Positions 12,669 through 37,999 of a stretch of DNA of 51,746 nt are shown here, piece by piece. Both the position numbers and the translations under genes were made by a program. The number at the start of each line of letters is the position of its first letter. Positions within the stretch are counted from its first letter, which is position 1. The stretch comes from Eubacteriales bacterium (GTDB taxonomy: Bacteria > Bacillota > Clostridia > Oscillospirales > CAG-272). Location of the stretch: positions 1 through 51,746 of the forward strand of contig JAZNZI010000134.1 in the NCBI GenBank assembly GCA_045594865.1. Reading direction: 5' to 3'. The notes below the pieces were generated by a model. It was not told the DNA's origin and ran no database searches. It saw only the letters and a list, made by a program, of their open reading frames with translations.

Positions 12669-14780
12669 TTAGGGGTTTTCAACCTTTTCTATATACAAAG
12701 TGGTCGTGTTTGCGTCAAGCGTCACAAGGTAGGTTCCGGGCTCTAAATATATATTTCTGTTTCCGTTGTTATCATCATAAGGAACCGTACATTCGGGATC
12801 AATGATCTCGCCACCGTACCACAGACCTGAATTGTTGTCATACAGCTTAAACTTGATCTTGCCATAATTAGAGGACACGTGCGCTTCGGTAAGAGTAAAG
12901 GTGAATATGCCGTTGCCCTCCGATTTCATCAAATAGTAATCGTTAGGCTGCCAGCCGTTCATATCTCCCATAATATAGGGCTTGCAATTTGCGATTGAGC
13001 CGCCGCTACCTGTATTTCCTCCCGAGCCTGTGTTATCGCCCGAGCCGCTATTGCCGCCTGTGTTGTCACCGTAATTAGGCTTTTCCTCGCTGTTGCCCTG
13101 ATCGCCGATAGCGTTATAGAGAGTTGCGCGCTTTGCGGAAATATAATCGGCAAAGGACATATTGCTGCTGTCACCCGGAGAGCAGGTTCGGTTGATGTCA
13201 AAACGGAAGCTGCAACCGCCTGCATTATGATAGTTTCTCGAGGGAGTGGTGTCGCCCGAATAGAGTGCCGCCGCGATGTCAAAGGCAGCCTTAAAGCTAT
13301 CGTTTTTCAGCATTTCGCTGGCGTCAACCGCCTTCAGCGCCTCGATATATTCATTTACAAAATAGCCGCCACGACACACAGTTTTTAAAAACAAGGGACT
13401 CCTCTGCTCACTGTTGTTGCCAATCGCCTGCTTTGAGAAGGGGTCATCGGTGGTCATACCGTTGCCGCTGGGATTCCAAGTGTTAACACCAAGTCCGCGG
13501 TCGGAGTCGTAAGGAATAACAAGCATCTTACCCGTGTCGGCGCGGAAGTAGATGTAGGAATTGTTGTAGTTATTACGCAGGTCGTCGGGATTACCGATAA
13601 TATAAGACACGGCGCAATAATTAAGGAAGTTCTCCATATCGATAAGCGACTCAAAGCTCGCCTTAGATGCGGAGGATGACTTTATGGTATTAATTAGATT
13701 TTTAAGGCTCTGATGAGTGGAGGTCTTCTTGTTAGTTTTCAGATCGTAGACGTAGAATCTGCCTGCATCCTCGTCCTCTACACCGTAGGAGGAGAAGGAG
13801 GTGAAGGTTGCGCCCTCGTTTGTCCAGCCAAGCTTATAAAGATCGCCGCCGAGAGCCGAGGCAGGAAGATTTTTCTCAAGGAAGACCTTATCTACAGGCT
13901 CGTAGACTACCCACACGCCTGCGTGATCGTCGCCGATATCAACCGAGGCAAGATTCGTGTGAGGAGCGAGAACGCCGAACTCGCGGTAAAGCTCGTAGGC
14001 ATAGTTCTCTCTTATATAGGTGGGATCGTCGTTTCTGTTCCAGCGAATATCAATCTTCTCAAGGGTGGCAAAGGTGCGGTTTTTACGTTCCTTTCGTGCC
14101 GCGGAATCGGTCCATACAAGCGCATCGCTGCCATAGTATGCCTCATCGTCAAAGGTCTCCTGGAAGCTGATCTTAAAGTGAACCAGGTTATACATTCCGT
14201 CGTGATCGTTATAGAAATCGGTGCGGGAGGTATTGCCCTTCATACGCACGCCAACCTGATCTATCACCCACTGCTCTGTCTCACCGCTCGGCTTTGTGAC
14301 CGTGACGATCATATCAGCCATACGGTAGATAGGAGATTTTGAGCCGAAGCCTCTGTATTTCTCATAATCCTGCTGAATTTTTTTCAGCTCAGAGTCGGAG
14401 ATATCAAGCTTTATGGATATATGATTATTTGGATCGAAGAATTCTTCAAAGGCTGCGATCTCGTCTGCGGGGTAATTGGGAGTAGGCTTTTCGTCATTGG
14501 AGCCACCGCCTGAGGTGCTGCCGCCATTATTGCCGCCATTGTTGCCGCTATTATTTCCGCCCGAGGTGCTGCCACCATTGTTATTACCACCTGAAGCGTT
14601 GCCACCAGAGGTGTTATCGCCTGAGGTACTGCCTCCGTTATTTGAATTTTCCGAATTGTTGCCGTTATTGCTTGTATTATCGCCGTTCTCTCCGCTACCC
14701 GTATTGCTGTCAGGATTTACACAGGCAACCGTGGAAAAGAGCATAAGTAAAACAAGAATAAGGCTCAAAAGCTTTTTCAT
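12669..14780 (-). CDS. CotH-domain lipoprotein with G/N/S-rich linkers and a C-terminal beta-sandwich module
   Basis: Start at MKKLLSLILVLLMLFSTVAC (lipobox). A ~70-aa G/N/S low-complexity linker follows. CotH-like core motifs are present: DIRWNRNDDPTYIRENYAYELYREFGVLAPH, NYNNSYIYF and IPYDSDRGLG. A second G/N/S linker precedes the C-terminal CKPYIMGDMNGWQPNDYYLM... module, which is carbohydrate-binding-like. Confidence 0.75.
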   Translation of the reverse strand: MKKLLSLILVLLMLFSTVACVNPDSNTGSGENGDNTSNNGNNSENSNNGGSTSGDNTSGGNASGGNNNGGSTSGGNNSGNNGGNNGGSTSGGGSNDEKPTPNYPADEIAAFEEFFDPNNHISIKLDISDSELKKIQQDYEKYRGFGSKSPIYRMADMIVTVTKPSGETEQWVIDQVGVRMKGNTSRTDFYNDHDGMYNLVHFKISFQETFDDEAYYGSDALVWTDSAARKERKNRTFATLEKIDIRWNRNDDPTYIRENYAYELYREFGVLAPHTNLASVDIGDDHAGVWVVYEPVDKVFLEKNLPASALGGDLYKLGWTNEGATFTSFSSYGVEDEDAGRFYVYDLKTNKKTSTHQSLKNLINTIKSSSASKASFESLIDMENFLNYCAVSYIIGNPDDLRNNYNNSYIYFRADTGKMLVIPYDSDRGLGVNTWNPSGNGMTTDDPFSKQAIGNNSEQRSPLFLKTVCRGGYFVNEYIEALKAVDASEMLKNDSFKAAFDIAAALYSGDTTPSRNYHNAGGCSFRFDINRTCSPGDSSNMSFADYISAKRATLYNAIGDQGNSEEKPNYGDNTGGNSGSGDNTGSGGNTGSGGSIANCKPYIMGDMNGWQPNDYYLMKSEGNGIFTFTLTEAHVSSNYGKIKFKLYDNNSGLWYGGEIIDPECTVPYDDNNGNRNIYLEPGTYLVTLDANTTTLYIEKVENP

Positions 14781-14811
14781 ATAAAAACCTCTCGTATTTT
14801 TTTCCAGTATA

Positions 14812-14840
14812 ATTATAGCACAAAGCTTTACGTCTGTCAA
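14812..14840 (-). promoter_or_regulatory. Sigma-A type promoter for the CotH lipoprotein gene
   Basis: On the minus strand TTGACA, a 17-nt spacer, then TATAAT. Confidence 0.6.
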
Positions 14841-14841
14841 T

Positions 14842-14870
14842 AAAAAAACCGCCGCAAGAGGCGCGGCGGT
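14842..14870 (-). terminator. Terminator after the 348-aa lipoprotein gene
   Basis: On the minus strand ACCGCCGC-GCCTCTT-GCGGCGGT followed by TTTTTTT. Confidence 0.8.
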
Positions 14871-14875
14871 AAGAG

Positions 14876-15922
14876 TTATTCTATGCTGAGTTCAAAAGAT
14901 ATTTCTATATCGTAGTCCTTATTTTCATCATCCTTGCCTGCCTCAATAGCGGATACGCCGATGGTGATAACATCGCCCTCTGCTACCTCGATGGTAGCCG
15001 AAAGCTCACCGTTTGTATACTGATCAACGGGAACGTCATTTTCAAGCACTCTACGTAGGTAGATGCTGTTACGGGGATTGTCCGTGGTAAGAGTAAGCAT
15101 ACCGTCAGCTGTAGCTACCCATGTGTAGTAAACCACCGTGTCGCAGTTTACGGTGACGGTGGCGCTGTTCTCGGTCAGCTCAATAGGATTCTCCATAGAG
15201 CCGCTGGGAGCTGTCACCTCAAGGAGCGCGGTAAACTCGGTGTCGGAGGTATTCTTTACCGAGAATACGGAGTTGGCAACGCCCATCTGGTTTTCATCAG
15301 GCTCGATAACGAGGGATGCCACACCGTCCTTTGCCGCATAGCTGTCACCGTTGAAGCCGATAACAGCAGCGGCATTATACACGTTAATGTATCTTACGGT
15401 GGAAACGCGGAGCATAAAGTAAAGCTCCTGGTCGGGAGCGAGAGTGATCTCGGTCTCGTTCTCCGAAATGAAGAAGGGCTTTGCTGCAGAGCCGTCTGGT
15501 TTGTTATCTACGATAGTAAGATCAACTGCACCGGTTCCCTCCTCTACCCTGAAGCCAAAGGTATCGGGAGAGCAATATTCAGGCAGGCTCTCATAATCGT
15601 AGTCAATCTGATAAATACCGCCCTCAAGGTCAATCTTAACCGTTCCGTCCTGTCCGCTTGTAAGCTCAAAACTCTTATCACCTCTGGTAAGAGTGAACTT
15701 AACGCCCGAGAGAGCGTCACCGTTATCAAGCTTTACGCTGATGGTAACAGAAACCGTAGTGATATCGGGTGCCTCGTCACCATCGTCATACTCAGCGCCA
15801 CAGCTGTCGCAAAGATGGTCGTCATCCGCATCCACGTGAGCCTCACACTTCTCCTCGCAGGAGGCAAGAGAAAGCGCCAGCGTCAGTATAAGAAGCAGAG
15901 CCCATAAATATTTTTTATTCAT
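14876..15922 (-). CDS. Lipoprotein (348 aa) with an N-terminal Cys/His/Asp motif and beta-sandwich repeats
   Basis: Signal peptide plus lipobox LALSLASC, then CEAHVDADDDHLCDSCG. The remainder is beta-rich (GGIYQIDYDYESLPEY; AEGDVITIGVSA). AAGGAG RBS. Confidence 0.8.
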   Translation of the reverse strand: MNKKYLWALLLILTLALSLASCEEKCEAHVDADDDHLCDSCGAEYDDGDEAPDITTVSVTISVKLDNGDALSGVKFTLTRGDKSFELTSGQDGTVKIDLEGGIYQIDYDYESLPEYCSPDTFGFRVEEGTGAVDLTIVDNKPDGSAAKPFFISENETEITLAPDQELYFMLRVSTVRYINVYNAAAVIGFNGDSYAAKDGVASLVIEPDENQMGVANSVFSVKNTSDTEFTALLEVTAPSGSMENPIELTENSATVTVNCDTVVYYTWVATADGMLTLTTDNPRNSIYLRRVLENDVPVDQYTNGELSATIEVAEGDVITIGVSAIEAGKDDENKDYDIEISFELSIE

Positions 15923-15952: not shown

Positions 15953-15981
15953 ATTATAGCATTTTCTATTAAGCTTTGCAA
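15953..15981 (-). promoter_or_regulatory. Sigma-A type promoter for the 348-aa lipoprotein gene
   Basis: On the minus strand TTGCAA, a 17-nt spacer, then TATAAT. Confidence 0.55.
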
Positions 15982-16006: not shown

Positions 16007-16032
16007 TGCGCCGCGACCATCCGACCGCGGCG
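16007..16032 (-). terminator. Hairpin after the 659-aa lipoprotein gene
   Basis: GCGCCGCG-(10 nt)-CGCGGCGC. The downstream tract on the minus strand is A/T-rich rather than a clean T-run. Confidence 0.45.
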
Positions 16033-16054
16033 CAAGGGTTAAAACAAAATCATA

Positions 16055-18034
16055 TCAGAATACGTAGTAGCTGATAACGTAGGTGCCTCTTTCCATACCG
16101 TATACGTAAAAGCGAACGGTCTCGCCTGCCTCAAGCGTGAGGGAGAAGGAGCCTGCCTTATAGCTTCCATCGGGATTTTTCGCATCATTATAATCAAAGT
16201 AAGGATTGGGGGTATCGTCGGTAGCGGGAGTCTTCTCTGCAGCATCGAATCCGTCAGCATCTATAAATCCAAGGCAAGGAGGAAGATTGAAGTAATAGGT
16301 TCCCGCCTCCTTTGCGGTGAAGCTAACCTCGTTTGCCCACTCGTAAGCCTCGGTCACCTTAACTGCGAATTCATTGTTGCGAAGGTCAATAAACTCCTCG
16401 TCAACAACGCCGACGTGGATATTTACCTCATGGAGCTTTTCACCAGAGAGATAGATCTCAAATCTGTATGCTCCGTCCTCCTTGGGAATAACAAAGAAGG
16501 ATCTCTGCTCACCCGAGAAGGTAAACATAGCTACCGCCGTGGTATTATCGTAGTTTTCAACATCATTAACCTCAACTCCATCCTTGAAGATCTTGAAGCT
16601 TACAAGCTCGGGAGCAAAGTGGATAGAGGTTCCTGCGGGCAGACAATCGCCAACGAAAAGGTTGACAGCATCGCGAACCTTTATGGAAATGGTATCGCCT
16701 GTAAACTTATTGGAAAGAGCGCCTGTCTGCTCGTTCATTTCAAGATAGAGATCAAAGCTTTCGGGAATGAACTTGCTCTTGGGATTGGGGTTCTCCTCGG
16801 TTCTCTCGCCTACCGTCTGAGTAAAGGAAAGCTCATATGTATCTGCAAGAGCGGTGTCACGGAAGGTATAGGTATCGGTATCGGGATCGTAGTCAAGGTC
16901 AACGTCCGCCTCATTAAGCTCACCGCTGGGAAGAGCGCCGGGGTCACTGGTAAAGCAATCAAGCTTTACGTCAAGAGAGGTGAGCGCATAATCATCGGTA
17001 TAAGTAAAGCTACACTCTGCGTTATAGACGTTTACGTTATATACAAGCTCGCCCGCGTTTTCACCGACAACTATGCTGGTAGCCTGAACAAGAACCGCGG
17101 TATAGCTAAATTCTATTTTATTCTCATCGGGATAGGACTTGATCTCAAGGTCTTTTACCGTTATATTTCCGTCACCTACACCTGCGGATGAATCGTAGAT
17201 GGAAAGAAGAAGTCCCTCGGGGCCGTATCCGTCAGCAAGTCCGGAAAGCGCGATATAGAGGCCTGTAAGCTTATCTGCATCTGCCATATCGAGAGTAAAG
17301 GTCTCACCACCGTCCTCGGTGATAATACCAAAGGCAGTCTCAGGACCGTCGGGCATATACCATCCCTCAATGGTAGACTCAACGGTAGTTGTGGCTACGG
17401 TCTTGGTATAAACCTTGTTATATGCATAGCCGTTATTTCCAAAGAGATATATTCCGTTTCTTTCAGACGTGGTAGAGAAGCCATCCTCGGCGCGATTACT
17501 GCGACCGGTAAACACATAGTCCATCTCACCGCCGTTTACAAGTCCCATCTGGGCAGCGAGAGCATTTACAAGCACCTCAAGATCGCTCTCGTCAATATCA
17601 ACGATCTTCTTACCGCACTCCTCAAAGGTGCAGAAGCCTGCTGCGTTTACGCCGTGAACGTGAGTTGTACAAACGTCACAGTGACCGTCAGCATTTTCGT
17701 CAGAATGGAGAGAGTTTTCTCCCTTATAGTCGGAGTGAGAGCAGGTAGCGTTCTTCCAATGGTGAGTTTCGTCGAAAGACCAATCAGCCTCAAGGCTGTG
17801 TGTGTGACCGATCTCAAGCTCACAAACGTCGCAAACGCCATCCTCATCGGCATCAACGTGGGGAGCGAGATCTCCCTTTTGCTCGCCGTGCTCGCAGGTA
17901 GCGGGATGCCAATGGTTGTTTGCATCATTATACCACTTATCGCTGAAGGTGTGCTCGCAGGTGGGCTGACAGGACGCCAGAGCTCCGATAAAGAGTGCGA
18001 GAACACACATCAAAAGCAAAATATTCCTTTTCAT
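16055..18034 (-). CDS. Lipoprotein (659 aa) with duplicated HW...C / H-x-D-x-x-x-DG-x-CD-x-C modules
   Basis: Lipobox FIGALASC. The N-terminus reads KWYNDANNHWHPATCEH...HVDADEDGVCDVCE, and the pattern repeats as DWSFDETHHWKNATCSH...HSDENADGHCDVCT. The C-terminus is beta-rich and includes FTAKEAGTYYFNLPPCLGF...LEAGETVRFYVYG. Confidence 0.8.
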   Translation of the reverse strand: MKRNILLLMCVLALFIGALASCQPTCEHTFSDKWYNDANNHWHPATCEHGEQKGDLAPHVDADEDGVCDVCELEIGHTHSLEADWSFDETHHWKNATCSHSDYKGENSLHSDENADGHCDVCTTHVHGVNAAGFCTFEECGKKIVDIDESDLEVLVNALAAQMGLVNGGEMDYVFTGRSNRAEDGFSTTSERNGIYLFGNNGYAYNKVYTKTVATTTVESTIEGWYMPDGPETAFGIITEDGGETFTLDMADADKLTGLYIALSGLADGYGPEGLLLSIYDSSAGVGDGNITVKDLEIKSYPDENKIEFSYTAVLVQATSIVVGENAGELVYNVNVYNAECSFTYTDDYALTSLDVKLDCFTSDPGALPSGELNEADVDLDYDPDTDTYTFRDTALADTYELSFTQTVGERTEENPNPKSKFIPESFDLYLEMNEQTGALSNKFTGDTISIKVRDAVNLFVGDCLPAGTSIHFAPELVSFKIFKDGVEVNDVENYDNTTAVAMFTFSGEQRSFFVIPKEDGAYRFEIYLSGEKLHEVNIHVGVVDEEFIDLRNNEFAVKVTEAYEWANEVSFTAKEAGTYYFNLPPCLGFIDADGFDAAEKTPATDDTPNPYFDYNDAKNPDGSYKAGSFSLTLEAGETVRFYVYGMERGTYVISYYVF

Positions 18035-18094: not shown

Positions 18095-18123
18095 ATTATA
18101 TAATACTTTTATGAACATTTCAA
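18095..18123 (-). promoter_or_regulatory. Sigma-A type promoter for the 659-aa lipoprotein gene
   Basis: On the minus strand TTGAAA, a 17-nt spacer, then TATAAT. Confidence 0.55.
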
Positions 18124-18223: not shown

Positions 18224-18257
18224 TATAAAAGAAAACCGCACCCCGAGGGGTGCGGTT
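18224..18257 (-). terminator. Terminator after the 1098-aa lipoprotein gene
   Basis: On the minus strand AACCGCACCC-CTCG-GGGTGCGGTT followed by TTCTTTTATAT. Confidence 0.8.
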
Positions 18258-21702: not shown

Positions 21703-21731
21703 ATTATAGAACAGCTTGGTAGATTTTTCAA
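21703..21731 (-). promoter_or_regulatory. Sigma-A type promoter for the 1098-aa lipoprotein gene
   Basis: On the minus strand TTGAAA, a 17-nt spacer, then TATAAT. Confidence 0.55.
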
Positions 21732-21934: not shown

Positions 21935-21972
21935 GAAAACCAAAAGAAAACCACGCCTCCGAAGAGGCGCGG
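21935..21972 (-). terminator. Terminator after the 2053-aa gene
   Basis: On the minus strand CCGCGCCTC-TTCG-GAGGCGTGG followed by TTTTCTTTTGGTTTT. One pair is G-U on the minus strand but A-C on the plus strand. Confidence 0.8.
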
Positions 21973-22005
21973 TAGACTAAGTATATTTAGTTGATTAACT
22001 TGATA

Positions 22006-28346: not shown

Positions 28347-28375
28347 ATTATACCACTCTTACAAACAAAATTCAA
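28347..28375 (-). promoter_or_regulatory. Sigma-A type promoter (extended -10) for the 2053-aa gene
   Basis: On the minus strand TTGAAT, a 17-nt spacer ending in TGG, then TATAAT. Confidence 0.5.
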
Positions 28376-28515: not shown

Positions 28516-28555
28516 CAGAAAAAGCAAAAGAGACGGCGCGGACGCCGTCTCTTTG
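28516..28555 (-). terminator. Terminator of the MoxR/vWA operon
   Basis: On the minus strand AAAGAGACGGCG-TCCG-CGCCGTCTCTTT followed by TGCTTTTTCT, 10 nt after the stop of the 517-aa gene. Confidence 0.8.
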
Positions 28556-30118: not shown

Positions 30119-32793
30119 TTTGCCGCTCCTTTCTTGGTTTTAACGAAAAGTCCCTTTATATCCTTAAGCTTGAATTTTCTCACCACTACGTCAACGATAA
30201 ACAGCACCGCCGCGAGAATAAGCAGAGGAATTGCAAAGCTTACCTCATAGGTAGCGACCTCGCTCTTGTCATTTTCAAGATCAAGGCTTCCGTCCTCGGA
30301 AATCTGTCCCACACCGCGCATAAAGTCATAGATGCTGACTATGTCGTAGGCGGTAAAGGAGTCGTACTCCTCGCTGTACGCGATAGTGAAGTAGGTATCT
30401 GAGGTAAAGGAATGATTGCCGTAGGTATAGGTTATCTCAATGTGATATTTACCGATATCGGAGGTTTCCACGGTGGCGTAATACCTGTTGAGGTCGAAGA
30501 TCATATTCTCCTCAATAACCGTTCCGTCGGGAGCGGTAAGCTTTAGACTCGCCTTCGCCTTAGGATTTACCGACGAGGGAATGATCTCAATACCCGAGGC
30601 ATCACCCATATAATTAAGATTGAGAGTAAAGGGATAATTTACGTGCTCGGTAGGTGTGTTGGTGACGAGAATATTGTTAAACAGCTGCTCCTTCACACTA
30701 TTGCTCCAGCCGCGAAGCCAGGTTCCCGAAATGCTGGAGGTAAAGGTGGCAACTCTGCCGTTTCCGTGGTCGCGATAGGAATAAAGCGGCACGGCAACCG
30801 GCGTGGTCGGATTCTTGTAGTAATCAACCGAAAGCACCATTTTAGCATCAAGCTTAGGCTTACTGTTTACATAGCCGTAAACGTCGGGCAAGGATAGAAG
30901 TCCCTCCACGGTACCGTCGCGATACATCTCTATATTGACCGCAGTCTGCTTCTCAACCACAGAGTCGGTCAGATCGTCTGCGATCTCGGCAAAGATAAGC
31001 TCGGTAAGCTTGCTCTCGTCAAGGAAATCATAGTACATACCGCCGCCGATGTCGGCAAGATTTTCAAGGAACAGACAGCCCGAGGTATGATCGTTTGGAG
31101 CTGCGGGACTGTGGTTAAGCACGCTGATGGTGGAGAGAGTTATATCGTCGTTTCTCATCTTCTCCGCCACGGCTGCCGCATCCTCAGGCTCGTTGGTAAA
31201 GGTCTTACCGTCGCTGATAAGCATTATCTGCTTCTCACCGTAGTCAAGATCCTTCATATGACTGTACGCCATATCAAGAGCCGCACCGATAAAGGTACCC
31301 TGGGTAGGCTGAACGTTCTGGATCATACGATAAAGCTCTTCCCTGCACTCGCCAAGCTTGGTGGGTGTAAGCTCTATTTTCGCCTCGCCCGCAAGGGTGA
31401 CGAAGGCAACACTGTCATCATCCTCAAGGATAGATACGAGCTTCATCGCAGCCTCCTTTGCCACAAGCAGCTGGGCAGGTCGCGCATAATACATACTGCG
31501 CGATATATCAATTATAATGGTATAAAGCTTCGCGTCCTTATTTGCATTGCCGAAGTTGACGGGCAGAAGCTCCTCAAGGCGCGCGAAAACCTCGTCGTCC
31601 CTGTTCTGCATAGACAGGTCGCCCATAGTGATAAGGCTCTTTCCGTACTGAGAAACGGCAAGGTCCACCGAGTCGATAAAGGCGTAGATATTGTCGATCT
31701 TACGGATATCCACGTTGGACAGTATAATCTCATCGTACTTTACCAGATCCTCAATGGTATAAGGCACTCTGCCGTTATGATCTGTGACAACATAGGAGTC
31801 GATAACAGCCGCCTCTCCAAACAGATCCTCGATAGCATTGACGTCAGCCCGCTTCTCGGTGACGAGCAGAACGCTTCTCTGCCCCGTCACGCTTTGGGTG
31901 AAGAGGTATGAGTTGTTGTGAGGAGAGGTATCGGCGGTTGCAGACAGCTCTACCTTATAGTCGAACACACCGGACTCGTCGGTGGGCAGATCAAAGGTAG
32001 CGATATTCATACCCACGTCCGCCTTGAGAGTGGTGGTGTCGATATTTACGTACTCGCTCTCACCGTCGCGCTTGGCATAAAGATCAATGATAACGTCGTT
32101 CTTTACGCTCGACTCGATAAGCATTTTAAGTGTGCTGTCGTGATTAAGATACGTAGCCGAGGTGTACTCCACGTCGGAGATCTGTATCTCGCTATCTCCC
32201 TCTCGGAGATTGTTGTTAAGATAGATTGCATCAAGCTTTATACCTTTGGCAACGAGGCGCTGTACCGCAGAGGCGGTGCTGCCGTCGGAGGTGGTGGCAA
32301 AGCCGTCGGTGATTAGAATTATTCTCTTGATCTCTCCCTCGCCAAAGAGGGTGGCGGTAAAGTCCAGCGCGCCTGCGATATTCGTGCCGCTGTCGTCTAC
32401 GGTCGCCTCCTTAACGCTCTTTATCTCGGTGCCCGAGGAGGTGAGAATCTCTGCATCCTTACCAAAGCATACGATACCGAGCCTCGAGTTAGATGGCAAC
32501 GCCTTCTCTATATCGCGGATGTACTCGTCTATCTCGTCGAGATTTCGGTTTGAGGAATAGGATACGTCGGCAACGACGTACACCTTCGTTCTCGTCATTA
32601 CGGTGGTGTGGGTAAGTCCCGCCGCCGCAAGAGAAATCGAAATAATAATTACTATGTGAATAATAAGAGATGCAACCCATCCCTTAGTGCGATTGTCCTT
32701 GCTTACGGAGATAAAGTAAGGAACAAGCAGTGCTATTGCCAGCGGAATGGCAATCAGAAGCCAATACGGATTATCGAAGCTGATATTTCTCAT
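30115..32793 (-). CDS. Membrane protein with two vWA domains (BatA/BatB-like)
   Basis: BatA-type N-terminal TM pair (FDNPYWLLIAIPLAIALLVPYF...). Two MIDAS DxSxS motifs (VVADVSYS, IIIDISRS). C-terminal TM anchor (FAIPLLILAAVLFIVDVVV). Confidence 0.8.
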   Translation of the reverse strand: MRNISFDNPYWLLIAIPLAIALLVPYFISVSKDNRTKGWVASLIIHIVIIISISLAAAGLTHTTVMTRTKVYVVADVSYSSNRNLDEIDEYIRDIEKALPSNSRLGIVCFGKDAEILTSSGTEIKSVKEATVDDSGTNIAGALDFTATLFGEGEIKRIILITDGFATTSDGSTASAVQRLVAKGIKLDAIYLNNNLREGDSEIQISDVEYTSATYLNHDSTLKMLIESSVKNDVIIDLYAKRDGESEYVNIDTTTLKADVGMNIATFDLPTDESGVFDYKVELSATADTSPHNNSYLFTQSVTGQRSVLLVTEKRADVNAIEDLFGEAAVIDSYVVTDHNGRVPYTIEDLVKYDEIILSNVDIRKIDNIYAFIDSVDLAVSQYGKSLITMGDLSMQNRDDEVFARLEELLPVNFGNANKDAKLYTIIIDISRSMYYARPAQLLVAKEAAMKLVSILEDDDSVAFVTLAGEAKIELTPTKLGECREELYRMIQNVQPTQGTFIGAALDMAYSHMKDLDYGEKQIMLISDGKTFTNEPEDAAAVAEKMRNDDITLSTISVLNHSPAAPNDHTSGCLFLENLADIGGGMYYDFLDESKLTELIFAEIADDLTDSVVEKQTAVNIEMYRDGTVEGLLSLPDVYGYVNSKPKLDAKMVLSVDYYKNPTTPVAVPLYSYRDHGNGRVATFTSSISGTWLRGWSNSVKEQLFNNILVTNTPTEHVNYPFTLNLNYMGDASGIEIIPSSVNPKAKASLKLTAPDGTVIEENMIFDLNRYYATVETSDIGKYHIEITYTYGNHSFTSDTYFTIAYSEEYDSFTAYDIVSIYDFMRGVGQISEDGSLDLENDKSEVATYEVSFAIPLLILAAVLFIVDVVVRKFKLKDIKGLFVKTKKGAAK

Positions 32794-34618
32794 AACAGTA
32801 TACCATCCAATCCGCAGTAAACACTACCGCCAGCATAATAAACAGAAGCATCAGCGGATCATACTGACCGTCAGTCTTCTCATAGGTCTGCTCACCCGTA
32901 AGAGAGAAGTCGATGCCTACCTCGGCAGGATCGCTCTCGGAGGTGGGTGCGGCAGAGTAGATCTGATAGGTCTTCTGATCGCCCGAAACCGTGAACACAA
33001 GAGTATAGGTGCCAACCTTGTCAAGAGAAAGCACGCCTACGTCCGTAGAGGTATCGATATAGCTCTCCGCTCCGTTCGGAGATGTCACCTTGACGCTGTC
33101 GATATTTGCCGTAATATTTATATTCACGTCCTCGCCGCAGAGGTAGTCCGAGCGGTCTACGAGAGCGGGACAGGAATATTCAAGAAGATTTGAAACAAGG
33201 GGGGTAAAGTCGGTGGAAAGCGTAATATCCGACTTATGGAAGTCGAAAGCAAACACTACCTCTCTGTTTCCAAGGGCGTTGACACCCGCCAACAGCATAG
33301 GGTTAGAGTCGTAGGAGAACAGCGTGGTGAACTGGGTGTACATTCCGCTGTACTTCACGTATTCAGAGATATAAATATCTCTGCCGACCACTCCCGAAAG
33401 CAACCTGCGCGCCTGAGTCGCGGTCGACGTGGATTTTACAAGCTCGCCTGGCTCCTCAAGCTCGTTGACGCCTCTGACACCGAAGCCCGAGTTATCCACG
33501 CTCTCGGAGGAGTTGATTAGCCAGACCGCCGCATCAGGCAACTGATCAGGAGTAAAGGAATGGAATACGTAAAGTCCGTATCCGCCTTGTTCCTGATATT
33601 CCTCGGGGGTGAGAGTATCCACGACAGAGTCGGTCAGCGCGTCGAACACCGCCTCAAGGAAGAAGGGTGTCTCGCTGACGATAAGAATGCTGTAGGATTC
33701 TTCGCTATTGGTGTTATAGCTGATAATCTCGTTATCTGCCGCAAGATCATCCTTATCTGTGATTGCAAGGCGGAAGGAATCGTAGCTGTTTACCTTACAG
33801 GTAAGCTCCACGGGAGCGCTCTCGCCCGCGGCAAGTGTGACGGTGGTTTTCTTAGCCGCCTTATCACTTCCGTTGATATAAAGCTCGACAGTAAGAGTTG
33901 CGTCAGAGGTATAGGAGGTGACCGTACCGCCTGCATAAAGTGTACCGTCGGTAAGATTGCCCCATACGTCGCTTATACCGTAATTTACCACATTTTGCGA
34001 ATCAATGTTTACAATTTCAACATTTTTGCTACTCTCGTAATCCTTATCGGTGACAAAATACACGAGAGTAGAGGTGTTCTCATCAAAGTACTTCTGCGCG
34101 GCGTCAAGAGCATCTCCGTACTCGCAGCTGCCGTCGCTGCACTGAAGGTCGGAGAGCAGATCTATCGCCACGTCCTTATCCGACAGGCGCTCGTAGACCA
34201 CGTCGGTGTCACCACCCACGGATATAAGGGTATAGGTACTGCCAAGGCGGGCGGACTCGATAGCATCCTCTATGTAATCCTTACCCTTATCAAAGCAGGT
34301 CTTGCCGCCGTTTACCGTATTCATACTTCCCGAGCCGTCGAGAATAAAGCAATACTCGCTTGCCGAATCAGGAACGATGAACATAGGACGGGCTATGGCA
34401 AGAGAGGCGAAAATAACCGTCAGGATCTGCAGAATAAGGCTGATAATGCCAGTAAGACCGCTGAGTGGATTTCTCCTCTTGAAGAATTTTTCACTTAATA
34501 TCCACAGATACGTGGACGGAACCGTCTGTTCGTTATACTTACTCCTCAGAATGTAGATGAGGATAAGCAGCGGAACGCCGATAAGACCAAGCAGGCCGAG
34601 GGGATATAAGAAGCTCAT
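32771..34618 (-). CDS. BatA-type vWA domain membrane protein
   Basis: N-terminus MSFLYPLGLLGLIGVPLLILIYILR...STYLW (aerotolerance BatA N-terminal pattern). MIDAS motif in CFILDGSGSM. C-terminal TM helix. It overlaps the next gene by 23 nt. Confidence 0.8.
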   Translation of the reverse strand: MSFLYPLGLLGLIGVPLLILIYILRSKYNEQTVPSTYLWILSEKFFKRRNPLSGLTGIISLILQILTVIFASLAIARPMFIVPDSASEYCFILDGSGSMNTVNGGKTCFDKGKDYIEDAIESARLGSTYTLISVGGDTDVVYERLSDKDVAIDLLSDLQCSDGSCEYGDALDAAQKYFDENTSTLVYFVTDKDYESSKNVEIVNIDSQNVVNYGISDVWGNLTDGTLYAGGTVTSYTSDATLTVELYINGSDKAAKKTTVTLAAGESAPVELTCKVNSYDSFRLAITDKDDLAADNEIISYNTNSEESYSILIVSETPFFLEAVFDALTDSVVDTLTPEEYQEQGGYGLYVFHSFTPDQLPDAAVWLINSSESVDNSGFGVRGVNELEEPGELVKSTSTATQARRLLSGVVGRDIYISEYVKYSGMYTQFTTLFSYDSNPMLLAGVNALGNREVVFAFDFHKSDITLSTDFTPLVSNLLEYSCPALVDRSDYLCGEDVNINITANIDSVKVTSPNGAESYIDTSTDVGVLSLDKVGTYTLVFTVSGDQKTYQIYSAAPTSESDPAEVGIDFSLTGEQTYEKTDGQYDPLMLLFIMLAVVFTADWMVYCYEKYQLR

Positions 34619-35499
34619 TTCACTACCCCCATATCAGCGAATTTCTCAAAGAACAGCTCGGGCAGATCCACATACGCGGGCGCAAGAAGATATGAACCGC
34701 CGCGGCTCTCACAGTAGAGCCTTATTCTGTCGGTCACGTATTTCAGAGCGTCCTTGTATGCGCGCACCACGTCCTGATCTATCTTCTTACGGAAGAACTT
34801 TGACTGATCCTCCGAGTCGAAAAGGTGCATTTTGCCGCGCAGCTGCGGATTAAGCTCCTCGCGGGCGAGAACCTGGACGCAGAGAATATCCCTTTTCTGC
34901 TCTGCAAGGCGGTCGATTGCCGCCTCAAAATTCTCGTCGGTGAGGAAATCCGAAATTATTATTGAATAGCCATCGCCTCTACCCACGGCAGAGGGAGCTA
35001 TCGCCTCGCTTATCTTTGAGTCGGAATCAAATTCGAGCTCGTTAAGCCTGTTAATACAGTTGAGATAAGAGTCCTTGCCCACCATACCTACCACGATCTC
35101 CTCAAGAGATGAGCCTCGGATAGCGTATATGGACACCTTATCCATCTCACATACCGAGAGGTAGGCGAACGCGGCGGCAAGCTTGATGGCAAAAACAGCC
35201 TTCTCGTCGCTGCCGTGATCCATGGATCGACTGGCATCAATATAAATTCTGGTATGCATCTGTCTCTCGTCGAAATAAAGCTTCTCATAAAGCTTATCGA
35301 ACCTTGCATAAGCATTCCAATCTATCTTGGTGACGTCGTCGCCGGGCATATAATCTCGGTAATCTGCAAATTCACAGGATGAGCCCAGATTTTTGCTTCG
35401 GCGGTTGCCGCCAAACATTCCGGCCACATTGTTTTTGAGTAGCGTCCCCAACTGCTCAAGCTGGCTGAGGAAGGACTCGTCGATTACCACTTTTTTCAT
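34615..35499 (-). CDS. DUF58 domain protein
   Basis: FADYRDYMPGDDVTKIDWNAYAR... followed by a degenerate vWA-like IYIDASRSM. This is the canonical partner encoded downstream of MoxR. Confidence 0.85.
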   Translation of the reverse strand: MKKVVIDESFLSQLEQLGTLLKNNVAGMFGGNRRSKNLGSSCEFADYRDYMPGDDVTKIDWNAYARFDKLYEKLYFDERQMHTRIYIDASRSMDHGSDEKAVFAIKLAAAFAYLSVCEMDKVSIYAIRGSSLEEIVVGMVGKDSYLNCINRLNELEFDSDSKISEAIAPSAVGRGDGYSIIISDFLTDENFEAAIDRLAEQKRDILCVQVLAREELNPQLRGKMHLFDSEDQSKFFRKKIDQDVVRAYKDALKYVTDRIRLYCESRGGSYLLAPAYVDLPELFFEKFADMGVVK

Positions 35500-35502: not shown

Positions 35503-36504
35503 TTAACCCTTTTTAGTTTCCTTAACGATCAGTCCGATTACATGGTCAACGGTAAGTTTGTCGTTGATGGCGGTGTAGTTGATCTTGATTCTGTGTCTGA
35601 GAATAGGATACGCAAGAGCCTCGATATCCTCATAGGAAACGTTGTATCTGCCATCCATAAGTGCGCGTACCTTCGCGCAAGTGACAAGTCCCTGCGCAGC
35701 TCTGGGGGATGCGCCGTATTTAAGATACTTCTTTGCGGATGGAGTAGAGGTCTCAGATGCGGGATGAGTGCCCGAAACAATGTTTACTGCATAGTAAAGC
35801 ACCTCGTCACAGATCGGAACCTGAGAGGCAAGCGCTCTCATCTCGAGAATATCCTCGCCTGTGACGACCGCCTCGGCAGTCTCCTCCATAGTCTTCTGTG
35901 TCATCTTAACGATGCCCACAAGCTCGTCATTTGTGGGATAATCCACGATAAGCTTGAACATAAATCTGTCCAGCTGCGCCTCGGGAAGAGGATACGTACC
36001 GTCCTGCTCGATGGGGTTCTCGGTAGCGAGGACGAAGAAGGGCTCGTCAAGCTTATATGTATCATTACCAACAGTCACCTTATGCTCCTGCATTACCTCA
36101 AGCATAGCAGACTGTGTCTTGGGAGTAGCACGGTTGATCTCGTCAGCGAGAACGAGGTTTGCAAAGATCGGTCCACGGCGGAACTTGGTTTGCAGTCTGC
36201 CGTTCTCGTCCTTTTCAACGATATTCGCACCCGTCACGTCGGAGGGCATAAGGTCGGGGGTGAACTGGATACGGGAGAAGGGCAAGGAAAGCACCCTGCC
36301 GAGAGAGCGGACAAGACGTGTCTTACCAACCCCGGGCACACCCTCGAGCAGCACGTTTCCGCCCGCAACGATAGCTGTGATAACTCCGTCAATAATCGCC
36401 GCCTGACCTACCACGTCCTTGGCAAGCTCGGTCTTTATCTTAGCGATCTTCTCGCTGAACATCTTAACCTTTTCGGTATTTATTTCTGTAATCATCTGTG
36501 ACAT
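35503..36504 (-). CDS. MoxR family AAA+ ATPase
   Basis: Walker A GVPGVGKT, Walker B LADEINR, and ATENPIEQDGTYPLPEAQLDRF. Start at MSQMITE (ATG at 36504); the ORF-track start at 36549 overlaps the upstream gene. Confidence 0.9.
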   Translation of the reverse strand: MSQMITEINTEKVKMFSEKIAKIKTELAKDVVGQAAIIDGVITAIVAGGNVLLEGVPGVGKTRLVRSLGRVLSLPFSRIQFTPDLMPSDVTGANIVEKDENGRLQTKFRRGPIFANLVLADEINRATPKTQSAMLEVMQEHKVTVGNDTYKLDEPFFVLATENPIEQDGTYPLPEAQLDRFMFKLIVDYPTNDELVGIVKMTQKTMEETAEAVVTGEDILEMRALASQVPICDEVLYYAVNIVSGTHPASETSTPSAKKYLKYGASPRAAQGLVTCAKVRALMDGRYNVSYEDIEALAYPILRHRIKINYTAINDKLTVDHVIGLIVKETKKG

Positions 36505-36505
36505 T

Positions 36506-37999
36506 TTAGTTTCCTTCCTTTTTCTCGACACCCTTATAAAGCAGGTCAAAATATTTTCTTATGGCTTCCTTCTGCTCCTCCGTGTAAGAGTCGCCCTCAA
36601 GCCTCTCGTTCATTATTGCGTTGTATTTATCAAGCAGCTCGCCGTATTTTATGGGCTGTCCCGTAATGGGATCAAGCACGATATCGTCGCTGCCGTAGGT
36701 TGCGCCCGTACCAAGACCGCCTTCGTGGTTGCCGCCGCCTTCTTCCTTATCACTGCTTCCGTAGCTGCCGTCGGGGCGCTCGCCCGTTCTGACAAACTCG
36801 GGGCGCTCAAACTCGGGAACAGGAACGAGAAACAGACTTGCAAGTCTCGTCATCGTGTACTCGCCCGTAGCGGCGTTGATTCTGTTAAGCGAAATAGCAT
36901 CGAAGAGCGACTGACTGTTTAAAGTAAGGCTTTGATTCAGCGCCTCTCTGGCGGTCGTGTCATCGTGATAGTCGATGGTTGCAAGGATCAGCGAAAGTCC
37001 GCCCGGATTTCCGTTGAAGAGCTTATCAATAGCCGCGCAAAGCTCATCCTCGGTATCAAGCTGCAAAATATCAAGAGATATCTTCATACTGTCAAGAGCG
37101 CGCTTCAGCGACGCCTTGCCGACGAGGGCATTCTCGTCCTCGCTTGTATCACCCATAAGCACCATCGAATACTCGGTAAGGCTCTCTGCAAAGTCGCCCC
37201 AATCGGGCATCGACCAGGAGCTTGCATCAAGTGTAACGGCAAGATGCTTGAGATATACGTTATTACTGTCCCAAAGGGAGTCAAGCGTTTCGGTCGCGGT
37301 GGACGAAGCGTATGTAATATCGCAGATGACCGCCATGCTCTTTGCGAGAGCTGCACGCATATCAGGAACAGTGTTGATGTTTTCAAGCTGGGAGAGCAGA
37401 TCCCGCAGCTCGTCGGCTATTGGAGCACGGAACTCCTCCTCCATCTTTGAGGACTCAACGTATCTTATCAGCTCGTTAAGACCTGCTCTCTGCATATCCG
37501 AAAGCTCAAACACCTCTATCTCCTCAGGCGGAACGAAGTCACGCATATCGGGAACGATAAAGCCCGCCACAAGAACGGCGGCGCAGGCTGCAAGCACGGT
37601 GATATATATGGGTAAGCCTTTGAATTTATAGGATTTTACAGAAACTGCCGACAGCTTTTCCTCGGCATCCTCTCTCTGAAGAGCAACAAGCTCTCCCTCC
37701 TCGCCCTGATAGGCTATCATAGTCTGAACTCTCGCCTTCAGCCCGAATTCACGGTCAAGCTCCTCGGCAAGCGATTTATCCGACCTTCCTCCAAAGAGAA
37801 AGAGAACACCGCCCACGACAAGAGCAAGTCCCAATCCTATAAAAAGAGAGGATATAGGCTCAAAATCTATAACGGCAAGCTTTGTCAGGATGAGCCACAC
37901 GCCTGCCGCCAGAAGTCCGACAGAGCTACCGACTATCCCGGCGCGAATTGTGCGTATCACGCAAAGCCGTCTTTTGAATTTTAAGAAATTTCCACTCAT
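36506..37999 (-). CDS. Membrane protein of unknown function (first gene of the MoxR/vWA operon)
   Basis: 497 aa. It has two N-terminal TM helices plus a third near aa 130 (GLPIYITVLAACAAVLVAGFIV) and the motif LAEELDREFGLKARVQTMIAY. I do not recognise the family with confidence. Confidence 0.7.
   Translation of the reverse strand: MSGNFLKFKRRLCVIRTIRAGIVGSSVGLLAAGVWLILTKLAVIDFEPISSLFIGLGLALVVGGVLFLFGGRSDKSLAEELDREFGLKARVQTMIAYQGEEGELVALQREDAEEKLSAVSVKSYKFKGLPIYITVLAACAAVLVAGFIVPDMRDFVPPEEIEVFELSDMQRAGLNELIRYVESSKMEEEFRAPIADELRDLLSQLENINTVPDMRAALAKSMAVICDITYASSTATETLDSLWDSNNVYLKHLAVTLDASSWSMPDWGDFAESLTEYSMVLMGDTSEDENALVGKASLKRALDSMKISLDILQLDTEDELCAAIDKLFNGNPGGLSLILATIDYHDDTTAREALNQSLTLNSQSLFDAISLNRINAATGEYTMTRLASLFLVPVPEFERPEFVRTGERPDGSYGSSDKEEGGGNHEGGLGTGATYGSDDIVLDPITGQPIKYGELLDKYNAIMNERLEGDSYTEEQKEAIRKYFDLLYKGVEKKEGN

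What the first reader, a model, noticed from the sequence alone, without database searches (positions are those of the whole stretch)
12669..37999. 25-kb single-strand island linking a MoxR/DUF58/vWA operon to five autonomous genes for Cys/His-module lipoproteins
Eleven consecutive minus-strand genes make up this region.

- **Upstream operon:** six genes encode a 497-aa membrane protein, MoxR AAA+, DUF58, a BatA-type vWA protein, a double-vWA protein and a 517-aa lipoprotein. They are joined by 4-23 nt start/stop overlaps or 1-3 nt gaps. They therefore form one operon, behind a promoter near 38030-38059 and ahead of a terminator at 28516-28555.
- **Downstream genes:** the next five genes (2053, 1098, 659 and 348 aa, plus a CotH-domain protein) each have their own near-consensus -35/17 nt/-10 promoter, an AGGAG-type RBS and a hairpin terminator.
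- **Lipoproteins:** six of the eleven products begin with a signal peptide and a lipobox Cys (SFTSC, TLASC, ALASC, SLASC, STVAC, SVVSC).
- **Shared modules:** the large proteins share Cys/His modules and beta-sandwich repeats that I cannot place in a named family.

MoxR-vWA pairs are established chaperone-like, metal-site (MIDAS) machines whose clients are mostly unknown. Fixed adjacency to metal-ligand-rich surface proteins suggests a machine-client relationship or a common envelope structure, but does not prove it.
Basis: partly seen in the sequence, partly recalled or inferred. Interest (0 to 1): 0.8.

Follow-up and report, generated by a model that had tools for sequence, protein, structure and literature searches.

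The report
MoxR-vWA operon with partner lipoproteins
In uncultured gut Clostridia, a MoxR/DUF58/vWA membrane operon stays next to a particular surface lipoprotein gene in at least 66 species, which gives a concrete candidate partner for a machine whose targets are unknown, though the Cys/His modules are a common zinc-type surface building block and not specific to this locus.

Summary
All eleven minus-strand genes, the operon junctions, the promoters and terminators, six lipoboxes and the shared modules are present, with two start-codon corrections.

- **Operon:** in 80 species-level genomes anchored on the 517-aa lipoprotein (g6), the six-gene operon is collinear wherever the flank allows.
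- **Partner gene:** 66 of 72 evaluable loci carry a lipoprotein gene with the ~48-aa His/Trp/Cys 'HW' module starting 128-981 nt after g6. The six exceptions are the window's closest relatives, where a 2053-aa-type gene sits in between.
- **True partner:** it is the 659-aa (g9) type. The 348-aa (g10) type follows in about 20 of 44 loci.
- **Reverse test:** 4 of 5 g9 homologues lie behind the operon.
- **Not conserved:** the 2053- and 1098-aa genes are lineage-specific, and CotH appears only in close relatives.
- **The module is not locus-specific:** it occurs in at least 3,827 protein clusters and matches the predicted zinc-binding domains of Thomasclavelia ramosa IgA protease.

Best reading: one envelope complex, with vWA/MIDAS domains and lipoproteins on the outer membrane face and MoxR/DUF58 inside. 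It is a new variant of the Bat-type MoxR operon.

The parts
38030..38059 (-). Promoter-like site of the six-gene operon (TTGACA-18-TATAAT, TG extension)
   Evidence: 12 of 12 consensus matches
36506..37999 (-). g1: 497-aa membrane protein with three TM segments and a 348-aa ectodomain; no family match
   Evidence: collinear in the loci
35503..36504 (-). g2: MoxR-proper AAA+ ATPase (Walker A GVPGVGKT, Walker B LLADEINR); start corrected to ATG 36504
   Evidence: AAA_3 E 2e-61, AAA_lid_2
34615..35499 (-). g3: DUF58 protein, vWA-like, MIDAS DASRS, no TM segment
   Evidence: E 8e-27
32771..34618 (-). g4: BatA-type membrane protein with an N-terminal TM hairpin, one vWA domain (MIDAS DGSGS), a 512-aa ectodomain and a C-terminal TM
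30115..32793 (-). g5: double-vWA membrane protein (MIDAS DVSYS and DISRS) with a 794-aa ectodomain and a C-terminal TM followed by a K/R-rich tail
28565..30118 (-). g6: 517-aa lipoprotein, last operon gene; prealbumin-like sandwich, then a collagen-binding-domain-like jelly roll, then a Cys-cluster domain
   Evidence: used as anchor for the 80 loci
28527..28554 (-). Terminator-like hairpin after g6 (12-bp stem)
28347..28375 (-). g7 promoter-like site
22006..28167 (-). g7: 2053-aa lipoprotein with 117 Cys and about 25 CxxC modules; lineage-specific insertion; contains tandem DNA repeats
21950..21973 (-). Terminator-like hairpin after g7
21703..21731 (-). g8 promoter-like site
18291..21587 (-). 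g8: 1098-aa lipoprotein with one HW module, type-2 modules and four beta-sandwich repeats
18234..18257 (-). Terminator-like hairpin after g8
18095..18123 (-). g9 promoter-like site
16055..18034 (-). g9: 659-aa lipoprotein, the conserved partner; two HW modules, a LolA/LprG-like central domain and two Ig-like sandwiches
17663..17959 (-). The two HW (predicted zinc-binding) modules of g9
21324..21473 (-). The HW module of g8
16007..16034 (-). Terminator-like hairpin after g9
15953..15981 (-). g10 promoter-like site
14876..15922 (-). g10: 348-aa lipoprotein with a half HW module, a prealbumin-like domain and a beta-sandwich; a frequent second partner
14848..14870 (-). Terminator-like hairpin after g10
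14812..14840 (-). g11 promoter-like site (12 of 12); its -35 box is the ORF-list TTG 'start'
12669..14780 (-). g11: CotH-domain lipoprotein (703 aa from ATG 14780); a neighbour only in the closest relatives
12636..12659 (-). Terminator-like hairpin after g11

Best explanation
**What it is.** The region holds a seven- to eight-gene envelope module conserved across many species of uncultured animal-gut Clostridia. Lineage-specific additions lie next to it.

**Composition**
- Inside the cell: a MoxR-proper AAA+ ATPase (g2) and its DUF58 vWA-like adaptor (g3).
- In the membrane: g1, g4 and g5. Together g4 and g5 expose three MIDAS-bearing vWA domains and large beta-rich ectodomains on the outer face.
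- Tethered to the same face by lipid anchors: lipoprotein g6 (always), a g9-type lipoprotein (nearly always) and a g10-type lipoprotein (about half of species).

**How it most likely works (inferred).** These proteins form one surface complex.
- The vWA ectodomains dock the lipoproteins, or the lipoproteins' ligands, through metal-mediated contacts.
- MoxR and DUF58 use ATP from the cytoplasmic side to assemble or reset the membrane vWA proteins.
- The g9-type protein is the outward-facing working part.
  - It has a stalk of zinc-stabilised HW modules.
  - Next comes a pocket domain that resembles LolA/LprG lipid-binding lipoproteins.
  - Two Ig-like domains follow.

**Additions.** g7 and g8 are recent paralogous additions built from the same module kit. 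CotH is a clade-restricted neighbour.

**Shown versus inferred.**
- Shown: domain identities, lipoboxes, intact motifs and the conserved linkage.
- Inferred: topology, physical association, the direction of the MoxR action and the ligand.
For: **Linkage**
- The g6 family has at least 484 homologues, all from uncultured Clostridia.
- In 80 species-level loci, g1-moxR-DUF58-g4-g5-g6 are collinear at fixed offsets, down to 35% g6 identity.
- The HW-module profile gives 245 hits downstream of g6 in 522 kb, against 1 hit upstream in 684 kb.
- 66 of 72 loci have a plus-strand module starting 128-981 nt after g6.
- The body of g9, beyond the module, is covered at 50% or more in 37 downstream proteins. 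Most of these are the first gene after g6.
- g10-type genes follow in about 20 of 44 loci.
- Reverse look-ups: P0171, P0198, P0200 and P0221 all lie behind BatA/vWA/g6.
- The flanking gene DinB is kept only in the 10 closest genomes.
- Gaps after g6 are 24-130 nt in 22 of 68 loci, and 50 of 68 lack a terminator-like hairpin.

**Shared compartment**
- Hydropathy and positive-inside analysis places 512-aa and 794-aa vWA ectodomains outside the membrane.
- This matches the experimentally determined periplasmic orientation of the vWA domain of Borrelia BB0173 (PMC5700661).
- Six products have lipoboxes.

**Competence**
- Walker A and B are intact in MoxR, and all four DxSxS MIDAS motifs are intact.

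**g9 model**
- Mean pLDDT is 87.5.
- The best PDB match for the model (659 aa, searched whole) is LprG bound to PIM, 3mha_B, E 3e-4. LolA3, LmcA and DUF1849 also match.
Against: - There is no expression, interaction or localisation data. Everything rests on gene order and prediction.
- In the window, g7 to g11 each have a near-consensus promoter, and a strong terminator follows g6. Co-regulation here is therefore not implied.
- In one genome (GCA_017646745.1), a g9-g10-CotH set lies next to rpsB/tsf, away from its operon.
- The HW module occurs widely in unrelated surface proteins, so the modules are not evidence for a MIDAS link.
- The LprG/LolA similarity is weak: TM-score 0.40 on the target and rmsd 9.7 A. 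I did not inspect it for a cavity.
- How a cytoplasmic ATPase would act on external vWA domains is unknown for every Bat-type operon.
- Deleting the bat genes in Leptospira gave no phenotype (PMC3557215).
Confidence: 0.55

Rival explanations
1. This is neighbourhood without partnership. The operon is an ordinary Bat-type MoxR/vWA envelope-maintenance operon. The lipoprotein genes downstream form an independent, fast-evolving array of surface adhesins or binding proteins. That array has stayed beside the operon through vertical inheritance, or because the site tolerates insertions.
For: - In the window, every downstream gene has its own promoter and terminator.
- g7 and g8 are insertions, and module duplication is ongoing.
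- The g9-g10-CotH set can sit elsewhere.
- The modules are generic surface-protein parts.
- Downstream proteins diverge much faster than the operon. At g6 identities of 35-47%, g9 identity is mostly 24-45% (up to 52% where the best hit is confined to the HW-module region), while MoxR keeps 67-82%.
Against: - The adjacency survives in 66 of 72 species, while the other flanks are lost beyond the closest 10 genomes.
- The gene after g6 is a specific orthologous body type, not just any surface protein.
- Gaps are short and terminator-free in distant lineages.
- g6, itself a lipoprotein, is translationally coupled to the vWA gene by a 4-nt overlap.
Confidence: 0.27
2. The system handles envelope lipids or glycolipids. 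The g9-type lipoprotein uses its LolA/LprG-like pocket to carry a lipid-linked envelope component, such as a lipoglycan or lipoteichoic-acid-like molecule. The MoxR/vWA membrane proteins would be the membrane platform that loads or receives it. The model would be the LprG-Rv1410 pairing in mycobacteria. That pairing is recalled from memory and was not tested here.
For: - Foldseek's best hit for the g9 model (searched whole) is LprG bound to PIM, and LolA3 and LmcA also match.
- As cited in PMC5700661, Bat-type operon mutants of Rhizobium leguminosarum show cell-morphology and envelope-integrity defects.
Against: - The fold match is weak: E 3e-4 and TM-score 0.40.
- I could not inspect the model for a hydrophobic cavity.
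- No lipid-synthesis or transporter gene is conserved in the cluster.
Confidence: 0.12
3. The function is metal or redox buffering. The Cys/His-rich lipoproteins (117 Cys and 52 His in g7) would act as surface zinc or metal stores, or as thiol buffers. They would work with an 'aerotolerance' operon.
For: - Cys and His content is high.
- His and Cys positions are invariant within the module.
- The Bat operon has a historical link to aerotolerance (PMC5700661).
Against: - The conservation pattern fits fixed structural sites, as predicted for the IgAse ZBDs: two His plus two Cys in tetrahedral geometry, with no disulfides (PMC12237041).
- The conserved partner g9 has only two modules, while the Cys-rich g7 is lineage-specific.
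- A role of Bat proteins in oxidative stress was not supported in Leptospira (PMC3557215).
Confidence: 0.06

Closest known systems
Bat-type (Bacteroides aerotolerance, BatI) / MoxR-proper operons: MoxR-DUF58-BatA-BatB with further components, e.g. B. fragilis BatI, Borrelia bb0170-bb0176, Leptospira bat, Rhizobium RL3499-RL3502
   Same: - A MoxR AAA_3 ATPase is followed directly by DUF58.
- Membrane proteins carry the BatA N-terminal TM hairpin and MIDAS vWA domains.
- The vWA domain is predicted to lie outside the cytoplasmic membrane, as shown for BB0173 (PMC5700661).
- The function is unresolved in this system as well.
   Different: - No TPR (BatC), BatD or SH3 (BatE) proteins were detected.
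- Instead there is a lineage-specific 497-aa membrane protein upstream and a translationally coupled lipoprotein (g6).
- A conserved g9-type lipoprotein lies downstream.
- The host is a spore-forming Firmicute of presumed Gram-positive type (envelope not examined), so 'outside' would mean the cell surface or wall zone rather than a periplasm.
ZBD1/ZBD2 predicted zinc-binding domains of Thomasclavelia ramosa IgA protease (IgAse, M64; PDB 9qa6 construct; PMC12237041)
   Same: - The HW-module profile matches the IgAse chain twice, overall E 2.5e-7, through the motif HxxxxEWxSDxxNHWHxCxCG...H.
- Both are extracellular, Cys/His-rich, beta-hairpin modules in Firmicute surface proteins.
- In IgAse they are predicted to hold tetrahedral sites of two His plus two Cys, and they are dispensable for catalysis.
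   Different: - In IgAse the domains were modelled only, not resolved experimentally.
- They lie near the C-terminus of a sortase-anchored protease, not at the N-terminus of a lipoprotein.
- The modules here also carry a conserved DxDxDG-x-CDxC loop.
- No link to MoxR is known for IgAse.
LprG / LolA / LppX-type lipid-binding lipoproteins
   Same: - Both are lipid-anchored.
- In the g9 model, the best PDB matches to the model searched whole are LprG-PIM, LolA3 and LmcA.
   Different: - The structural similarity is weak and there is no sequence similarity.
- g9 adds zinc-type modules and two Ig-like domains.
- Ligand binding is untested.
Characterised MoxR/vWA chaperone pairs (RavA-ViaA, CbbQ-CbbO, NorQ-NorD, CoxD-CoxE); recalled from established literature
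   Same: An AAA+ MoxR-family ATPase is encoded with a vWA/MIDAS adaptor that is thought to dock a client.
   Different: - Those pairs act on cytoplasmic or membrane enzyme complexes, with the vWA protein in the cytoplasm.
- Here three of the four vWA-type domains are predicted to be extracytoplasmic.
- The candidate partners here are lipoproteins.

Membership tests
MoxR-proper AAA+ ATPase (Pfam AAA_3) | AAA_3 domain with AAA lid, and intact Walker A and B | tested here: met
   (AAA_3 E 2e-61, above the curated cut-off; AAA_lid_2 E 8.6e-16); GVPGVGKT and LLADEINR read
Bat-type MoxR operon | DUF58 gene directly after moxR | tested here: met
   (DUF58 E 8e-27); 3-nt gap; kept in all loci with enough upstream flank
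Bat-type MoxR operon | BatA-type N-terminal double-TM domain plus a vWA domain with a MIDAS motif | tested here: met
   BatA E 1e-9, VWA_2 E 5.6e-12; TIGR02226 below cut-off; DGSGS, DVSYS and DISRS; TM layout
Bat-type MoxR operon | TPR (BatC), BatD and SH3 (BatE) components | tested here: not met
   No such Pfam or NCBIfam hit in any of the 11 products or the flanking genes
Bacterial lipoproteins | Signal peptide ending in a lipobox [LVI][ASTVI][GAS]C | tested here: met
   Six products in the window; lipobox-like motif in most first-downstream genes of the loci
Bacterial lipoproteins | Lgt/Lsp-dependent lipidation and cleavage | not testable with these tools
   Needs biochemistry
IgAse ZBD-like zinc-binding module | Sequence match to ZBD1/ZBD2 and conserved His/Cys ligand positions | tested here: met
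   (E 2.5e-7, two stretches); invariant H, W, C and D columns
IgAse ZBD-like zinc-binding module | Actual zinc binding | not testable with these tools
   Only predicted, even for IgAse (PMC12237041)
LolA/LprG-like lipid-binding fold (g9 residues 150-410) | Half-barrel fold with a hydrophobic cavity | tested here: inconclusive
   Foldseek: 3mha_B E 3e-4, TM-score 0.40 on the target, rmsd 9.7 A; cavity not examined; no sequence hit
CotH kinase family (g11) | CotH domain above the Pfam cut-off | tested here: met
   (E 1.6e-31, 110.5 bits against a cut-off of 23.8); catalytic residues not checked
MoxR-vWA-beta-propeller ternary conflict systems / anti-phage defence | bpMoxR-type ATPase with beta-propeller and effector partners; PADLOC models | tested here: not met
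   bpMoxR scores far below AAA_3; no beta-propeller found; PADLOC gives only weak generic AAA hits

The most novel reading that the evidence does not exclude
The g6 and g9-type lipoproteins would be the first identifiable dedicated partners, or clients, of a Bat-type MoxR/DUF58/vWA machine. On this reading the machine is a transmembrane assembly platform. Its external MIDAS domains would hold a LolA/LprG-like, zinc-stalked lipoprotein that handles a lipid-linked or surface ligand in the envelope of these Clostridia. This would give a general clue to what Bat operons do in other phyla.
Probability: 0.2. Interest if true: 0.75.

Novelty: new variant of a known kind. Interest (0 to 1): 0.5.

Why it matters
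**An open question gets a candidate.** MoxR-DUF58-BatA/BatB operons are widespread in bacteria. After more than 25 years they still have no agreed function or client: the Leptospira deletion gave no phenotype (PMC3557215), and the Borrelia and Bacteroides work is inconclusive.

**What this lineage offers.** Here the operon carries a translationally coupled lipoprotein. In at least 66 species a specific second lipoprotein follows it. That names concrete candidate partners that could be tested by co-expression and pull-down.

**A second result.** The ~48-aa His/Trp/Cys module is a large extracellular domain family with no Pfam model matched here. It covers at least 3,827 clusters at 50% identity. 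Its only description so far is as the predicted 'ZBD' of one IgA protease. It is probably a zinc-stabilised substitute for disulfide-rich spacer modules in anaerobes.

**Limit.** All carriers are uncultured gut Clostridia known only from metagenome-assembled genomes, so direct genetics is not yet possible.

Tried and rejected
- **Exact look-up of g6.** Not on record.
- **Family scans of whole g1, g6, g7, g8, g9 and g10.** Pfam and NCBIfam gave only sub-threshold hits: DUF3244, SpaA and DUF903.
- **Pfam on ten body segments at E up to 1.** Nothing credible. This covered the g7 OB-like and C-terminal domains, the g9 centre, the g6 C-terminus, and the g1 and g4 ectodomains.
- **PADLOC.** No defence-system match, so the defence reading was dropped.
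- **PDB sequence searches with g9 and g7.** Nothing found.
- **Repeat of that scan with 8 sequences.**
  - Only 5 loci came back, so this is not a fair reverse-synteny sample.
  - It still showed the module in unrelated surface proteins.
- **Module profile against the 5.8-billion-protein index.** It returned nothing, because the query was too short for that E-value scale. One search was wasted.
- **The 1096-aa plus-strand ORF mirroring g8.** Rejected as a gene.
- **'Horizontally acquired island'.**
  - GC content varies only within g7.
  - The cluster is vertically conserved across the lineage.
- **Sporulation role suggested by CotH and the nearby SpoIVA.** Not pursued. CotH adjacency is limited to close relatives.

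Full report

Yes. The ORF list gives eleven consecutive minus-strand ORFs at the stated coordinates.

Domain identities are confirmed by Pfam.
- g2 is a MoxR-type AAA+ protein (AAA_3, E 2e-61, plus AAA_lid_2).
- g3 is DUF58 (E 8e-27).
- g4 has the BatA N-terminal domain plus VWA_2.
- g5 has two vWA domains.
- g11 has a CotH domain (E 1.6e-31).
- g1, g6 and g7 match nothing in Pfam or NCBIfam.

The first value holds only if moxR starts at ATG 36504, which has a GGAAGGA ribosome-binding site. The ORF-list TTG at 36549 is probably not the start.

The consensus scans place promoter-like and terminator-like sites as follows.
- A 12/12 promoter-like site lies at 38059-38030, and a 12-bp-stem terminator at 28554-28527. 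No comparable hairpin lies inside the operon.
- Each of g7 to g11 has a 10-12/12 promoter-like site and a 9-12-bp hairpin terminator.

The g11 promoter's -35 box is the TTG that the ORF list gave as the start. The real start is therefore ATG 14780.

The six lipoboxes are present. MoxR has intact Walker A and B motifs. All four vWA-type domains keep a DxSxS MIDAS motif.

**2. Shared modules**

BLASTP shows two distinct Cys/His modules.
- **Type-2 module.** A ~40-aa unit (PTCTExG...CxxCG...GH) is shared by g7 and g8.
- **HW module.** A ~48-aa unit is shared by g8 and g9. Its consensus is HEHTYSEEWSSDATNHWHAATCEHEVEKADKAAHVDANEDGVCDVCGY.

In an alignment of 38 g9 homologues, the His, Trp, Cys and Asp positions of both HW modules are invariant.

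An iterated profile of the g8 beta-sandwich repeat hits g8 four times, the C-terminal domain of g9 and that of g10. It does not hold for g6 or CotH.

**3. Source and spread**

SpoIVA in the window marks a spore-forming Firmicute.

The g6 family has at least 484 homologues at 56-98% identity among the top 120. All are unnamed and come from uncultured Clostridia.

A scan of species-representative genomes found 138 relatives, of which 80 were fetched. All are metagenome-assembled genomes labelled Clostridia, Eubacteriales, Oscillospiraceae, Ruminococcus or Candidatus Scatosoma. Those whose record titles name a source come from ruminant or deer hindgut or from faeces. L001, from sheep rectum, is 99% identical to the window.

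**4. Synteny test, forward direction**

tblastn of the eleven proteins against the 80 loci shows g1-moxR-DUF58-g4-g5-g6 collinear at nearly fixed offsets. This holds in every locus with enough upstream flank, down to 35% g6 identity.

The HW-module profile gives 245 hits downstream of g6 in 522 kb, against 1 hit upstream in 684 kb. In 66 of 72 loci with at least 700 bp downstream, a same-strand module starts 128-981 nt after g6.

The six exceptions are the window's closest relatives. There a g7-type gene lies between g6 and the HW gene.

The similarity goes beyond the module.
- The g9 body is covered at 50% or more in 37 downstream proteins, mostly the first gene after g6.
- A g10-type lipoprotein follows in about 20 of 44 loci with enough flank.
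- g7 and g8 types are patchy.
- CotH is adjacent only in L003 and L014.

**5. Synteny test, reverse direction**

Four of them (P0171, P0198, P0200 and P0221, at 35-50% identity) lie behind BatA/vWA/g6-type genes.

The fifth, P0195, lies beside rpsB/tsf and is followed by g10-type and CotH genes. The same genome's operon (L011) is on another contig.

Linkage is therefore strong but not absolute. g9-g10-CotH behaves as a sub-unit in the window's clade.

**6. Is this just conserved gene order?**

No. The window's upstream neighbour, a DinB-type polymerase, is kept only in the 10 closest loci. The downstream neighbours are never seen within 10 kb.

The gap between g6 and the next gene has a median of 222 nt, but it is 24-130 nt in 22 of 68 loci. 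These are mostly the most distant species. By a crude scan, 50 of 68 gaps lack a terminator-like hairpin.

The g9-type gene was therefore probably a seventh cistron in the ancestor. The terminator and separate promoters seen in the window are features of its own clade.

**7. What the modules are**

The HW profile matches one PDB sequence, 9qa6_A, an IgA protease. It matches twice, with overall E 2.5e-7.

The accompanying paper (PMC12237041) describes these regions as ZBD1 and ZBD2.
- They were modelled by AI only.
- They are predicted to hold tetrahedral sites of two His plus two Cys at subdomain interfaces.
- They contain no disulfides and are dispensable for catalysis.

A profile search of 1.84 billion representative proteins finds the module in 3,827 clusters at E 1e-3 or better, and in 1,263 at 1e-10 or better. 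Some proteins carry up to 17 copies. Sampled carriers also contain InlB B-repeat/Flg_new, CBM9 and beta-helix domains.

Five metagenome loci carry the module in other Firmicute surface proteins with no g1-g6 nearby.

The module is therefore a generic, unnamed, probably zinc-stabilised extracellular spacer. It is not a signature of this locus, and it is not a good argument for a 'metal-site client'.

**8. Structures**

*g6 model* (mean pLDDT 76.6).
- It has a prealbumin-like sandwich.
- This is followed by a jelly roll resembling the ColG collagen-binding domain, C-CPE and DUF3823 (E 7e-6 to 3e-4).
- It ends in a confident C-terminal domain with an invariant Cys cluster.
- No enzyme fold was recognised.

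*g9 model* (mean pLDDT 87.5).
- It starts with N-terminal beta-hairpin modules.
- The central domain spans residues 150-410. The best PDB match, obtained with the whole 659-aa model, is LprG bound to PIM (E 3e-4), with LolA3, LmcA, DUF1849 and nitrobindin also listed.
- Two filamin-like Ig domains follow.

The LprG/LolA similarity is weak, so I treat it as a lead only.

**9. Topology**

Hydropathy and K/R counts give these layouts.
- g4: TM segments at 6-24, 58-76 and 589-607.
- g5: TM segments at 6-24, 40-58 and 853-871.
- In both, the short inter-TM loop and the C-terminal tail are K/R-rich.
- The 512-aa and 794-aa vWA-bearing stretches are therefore predicted to lie outside.
- g1: three TM segments and a 348-aa external domain.

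This agrees with the experimentally determined periplasmic orientation of the vWA domain of the Borrelia BatA-like protein BB0173 (PMC5700661).

MoxR and DUF58 have no convincing TM segments, so they are taken to be cytoplasmic.

**10. Mechanism**

The best-supported reading is a single envelope complex.
- Three external MIDAS vWA domains (from g4 and g5) and the g1 ectodomain share the outer membrane face with the lipoproteins g6, g9-type and often g10-type.
- MoxR and DUF58 act from inside on the membrane components.
- The g9-type protein, held on a zinc-module stalk, is the distal ligand-binding part.

The shown steps are the domain identities, the motifs and the linkage. The inferred steps are the topology, the physical association, the role of MIDAS in docking and the nature of the ligand.

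The rival readings are:
- conserved neighbourhood without interaction;
- a more specific lipid-carrier role;
- metal or redox buffering.

A defence-system reading was dropped.

**11. Comparison and novelty**

This is a Bat-type (MoxR-proper) operon that lacks the BatC, BatD and BatE-type components. It has gained a lineage-specific membrane protein and lipoproteins, so it is a new variant of a known kind.

Bat operons still have no established function (PMC3557215, PMC5700661). A rigidly linked pair of candidate partners is therefore useful. The value is limited because every carrier is an uncultured MAG and all the evidence is genomic.

**12. Scores**

- Interest: 0.5.
- Most novel reading not excluded: these lipoproteins are the first dedicated partners of a Bat-type MoxR machine. 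Probability about 0.2; interest if true 0.75.

Noticed in passing
window 18345-21635 (+): A 1096-aa ORF lies exactly opposite g8 in the same codon register. g8 contains no TTA, CTA or TCA codons, which are the reverse complements of stop codons, and these codons are rare in all eleven genes. The ORF is therefore a codon-usage shadow and not a gene. Similar long antisense ORFs misled my ORF picking in L028, L035, L051, L054 and L056.
   Followed up: yes
window 14780-14840 and 36504-36549: Two ORF-list starts are probably wrong. The g11 TTG at 14840 is the -35 hexamer of a 12/12 promoter, and the real ATG is at 14780. The moxR TTG at 36549 lies inside g1, and ATG 36504 has a ribosome-binding site and leaves a 1-nt gap.
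   Followed up: yes
window 27686-27972, 27130-27291, 24769-25076: g7 contains tandem DNA repeats: a 123-nt unit (2.3 copies, 84% match), a 78-nt unit (2.1 copies) and a 168-nt unit (1.8 copies). Each corresponds to whole protein modules. This points to recent module duplication and possible length variation.
   Followed up: partly
window 38149-38177 (+) and 38030-38059 (-): Two perfect 12/12 sigma-70-type promoter matches sit back to back in the 223-nt divergent region between g1 and a DinB/IMS-type polymerase gene (38223-39719). Both have a TG extension.
   Followed up: no
g7 residues 1569-1657 (window about 23197-23463); L081 9722-9982: This g7 segment looks OB-fold-like by eye. It is 41% identical to part of an 867-aa protein with a 5'-nucleotidase C-terminal domain in another genome, and that protein also carries g7-type Cys modules. 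This could hint at nucleic-acid or nucleotide binding. Pfam gives nothing.
   Followed up: partly
HW module, e.g. window 17663-17959; proteins P0241-P0390: The ~48-aa His/Trp/Cys module defines a large family with no Pfam match. It covers 3,827 clusters at 50% identity, with up to 17 copies per protein. Each unit also has a conserved DxDxDG-x-CDxC loop that resembles calcium-binding loops. That resemblance is recalled from memory and was not tested.
   Followed up: partly
L089 17286-21029; L090 5480-13702; L091 16191-21953: In several related genomes the lipoprotein array is followed by a GDSL lipase/PelX gene, a Big_3-pectinesterase gene, an HTH_6/SIS regulator and a GH38 alpha-mannosidase. 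This may be a glycan-use neighbourhood in that sub-clade. It is absent from the window.
   Followed up: no
window 12669-12900 (g11 C-terminus): The C-terminal ~100 aa of the CotH protein (CKPYIMGDMNGWQPNDYYL...) resemble, by eye, a glycogen- or starch-binding E-set/CBM48-like domain. I did not test this.
   Followed up: no
window 40410-43676 (-): A TPM-domain protein, a 361-aa protein with no family match and an SPFH/Band-7 protein lie in a row beyond the DinB gene. None was seen in the related loci within the flank available.
   Followed up: no
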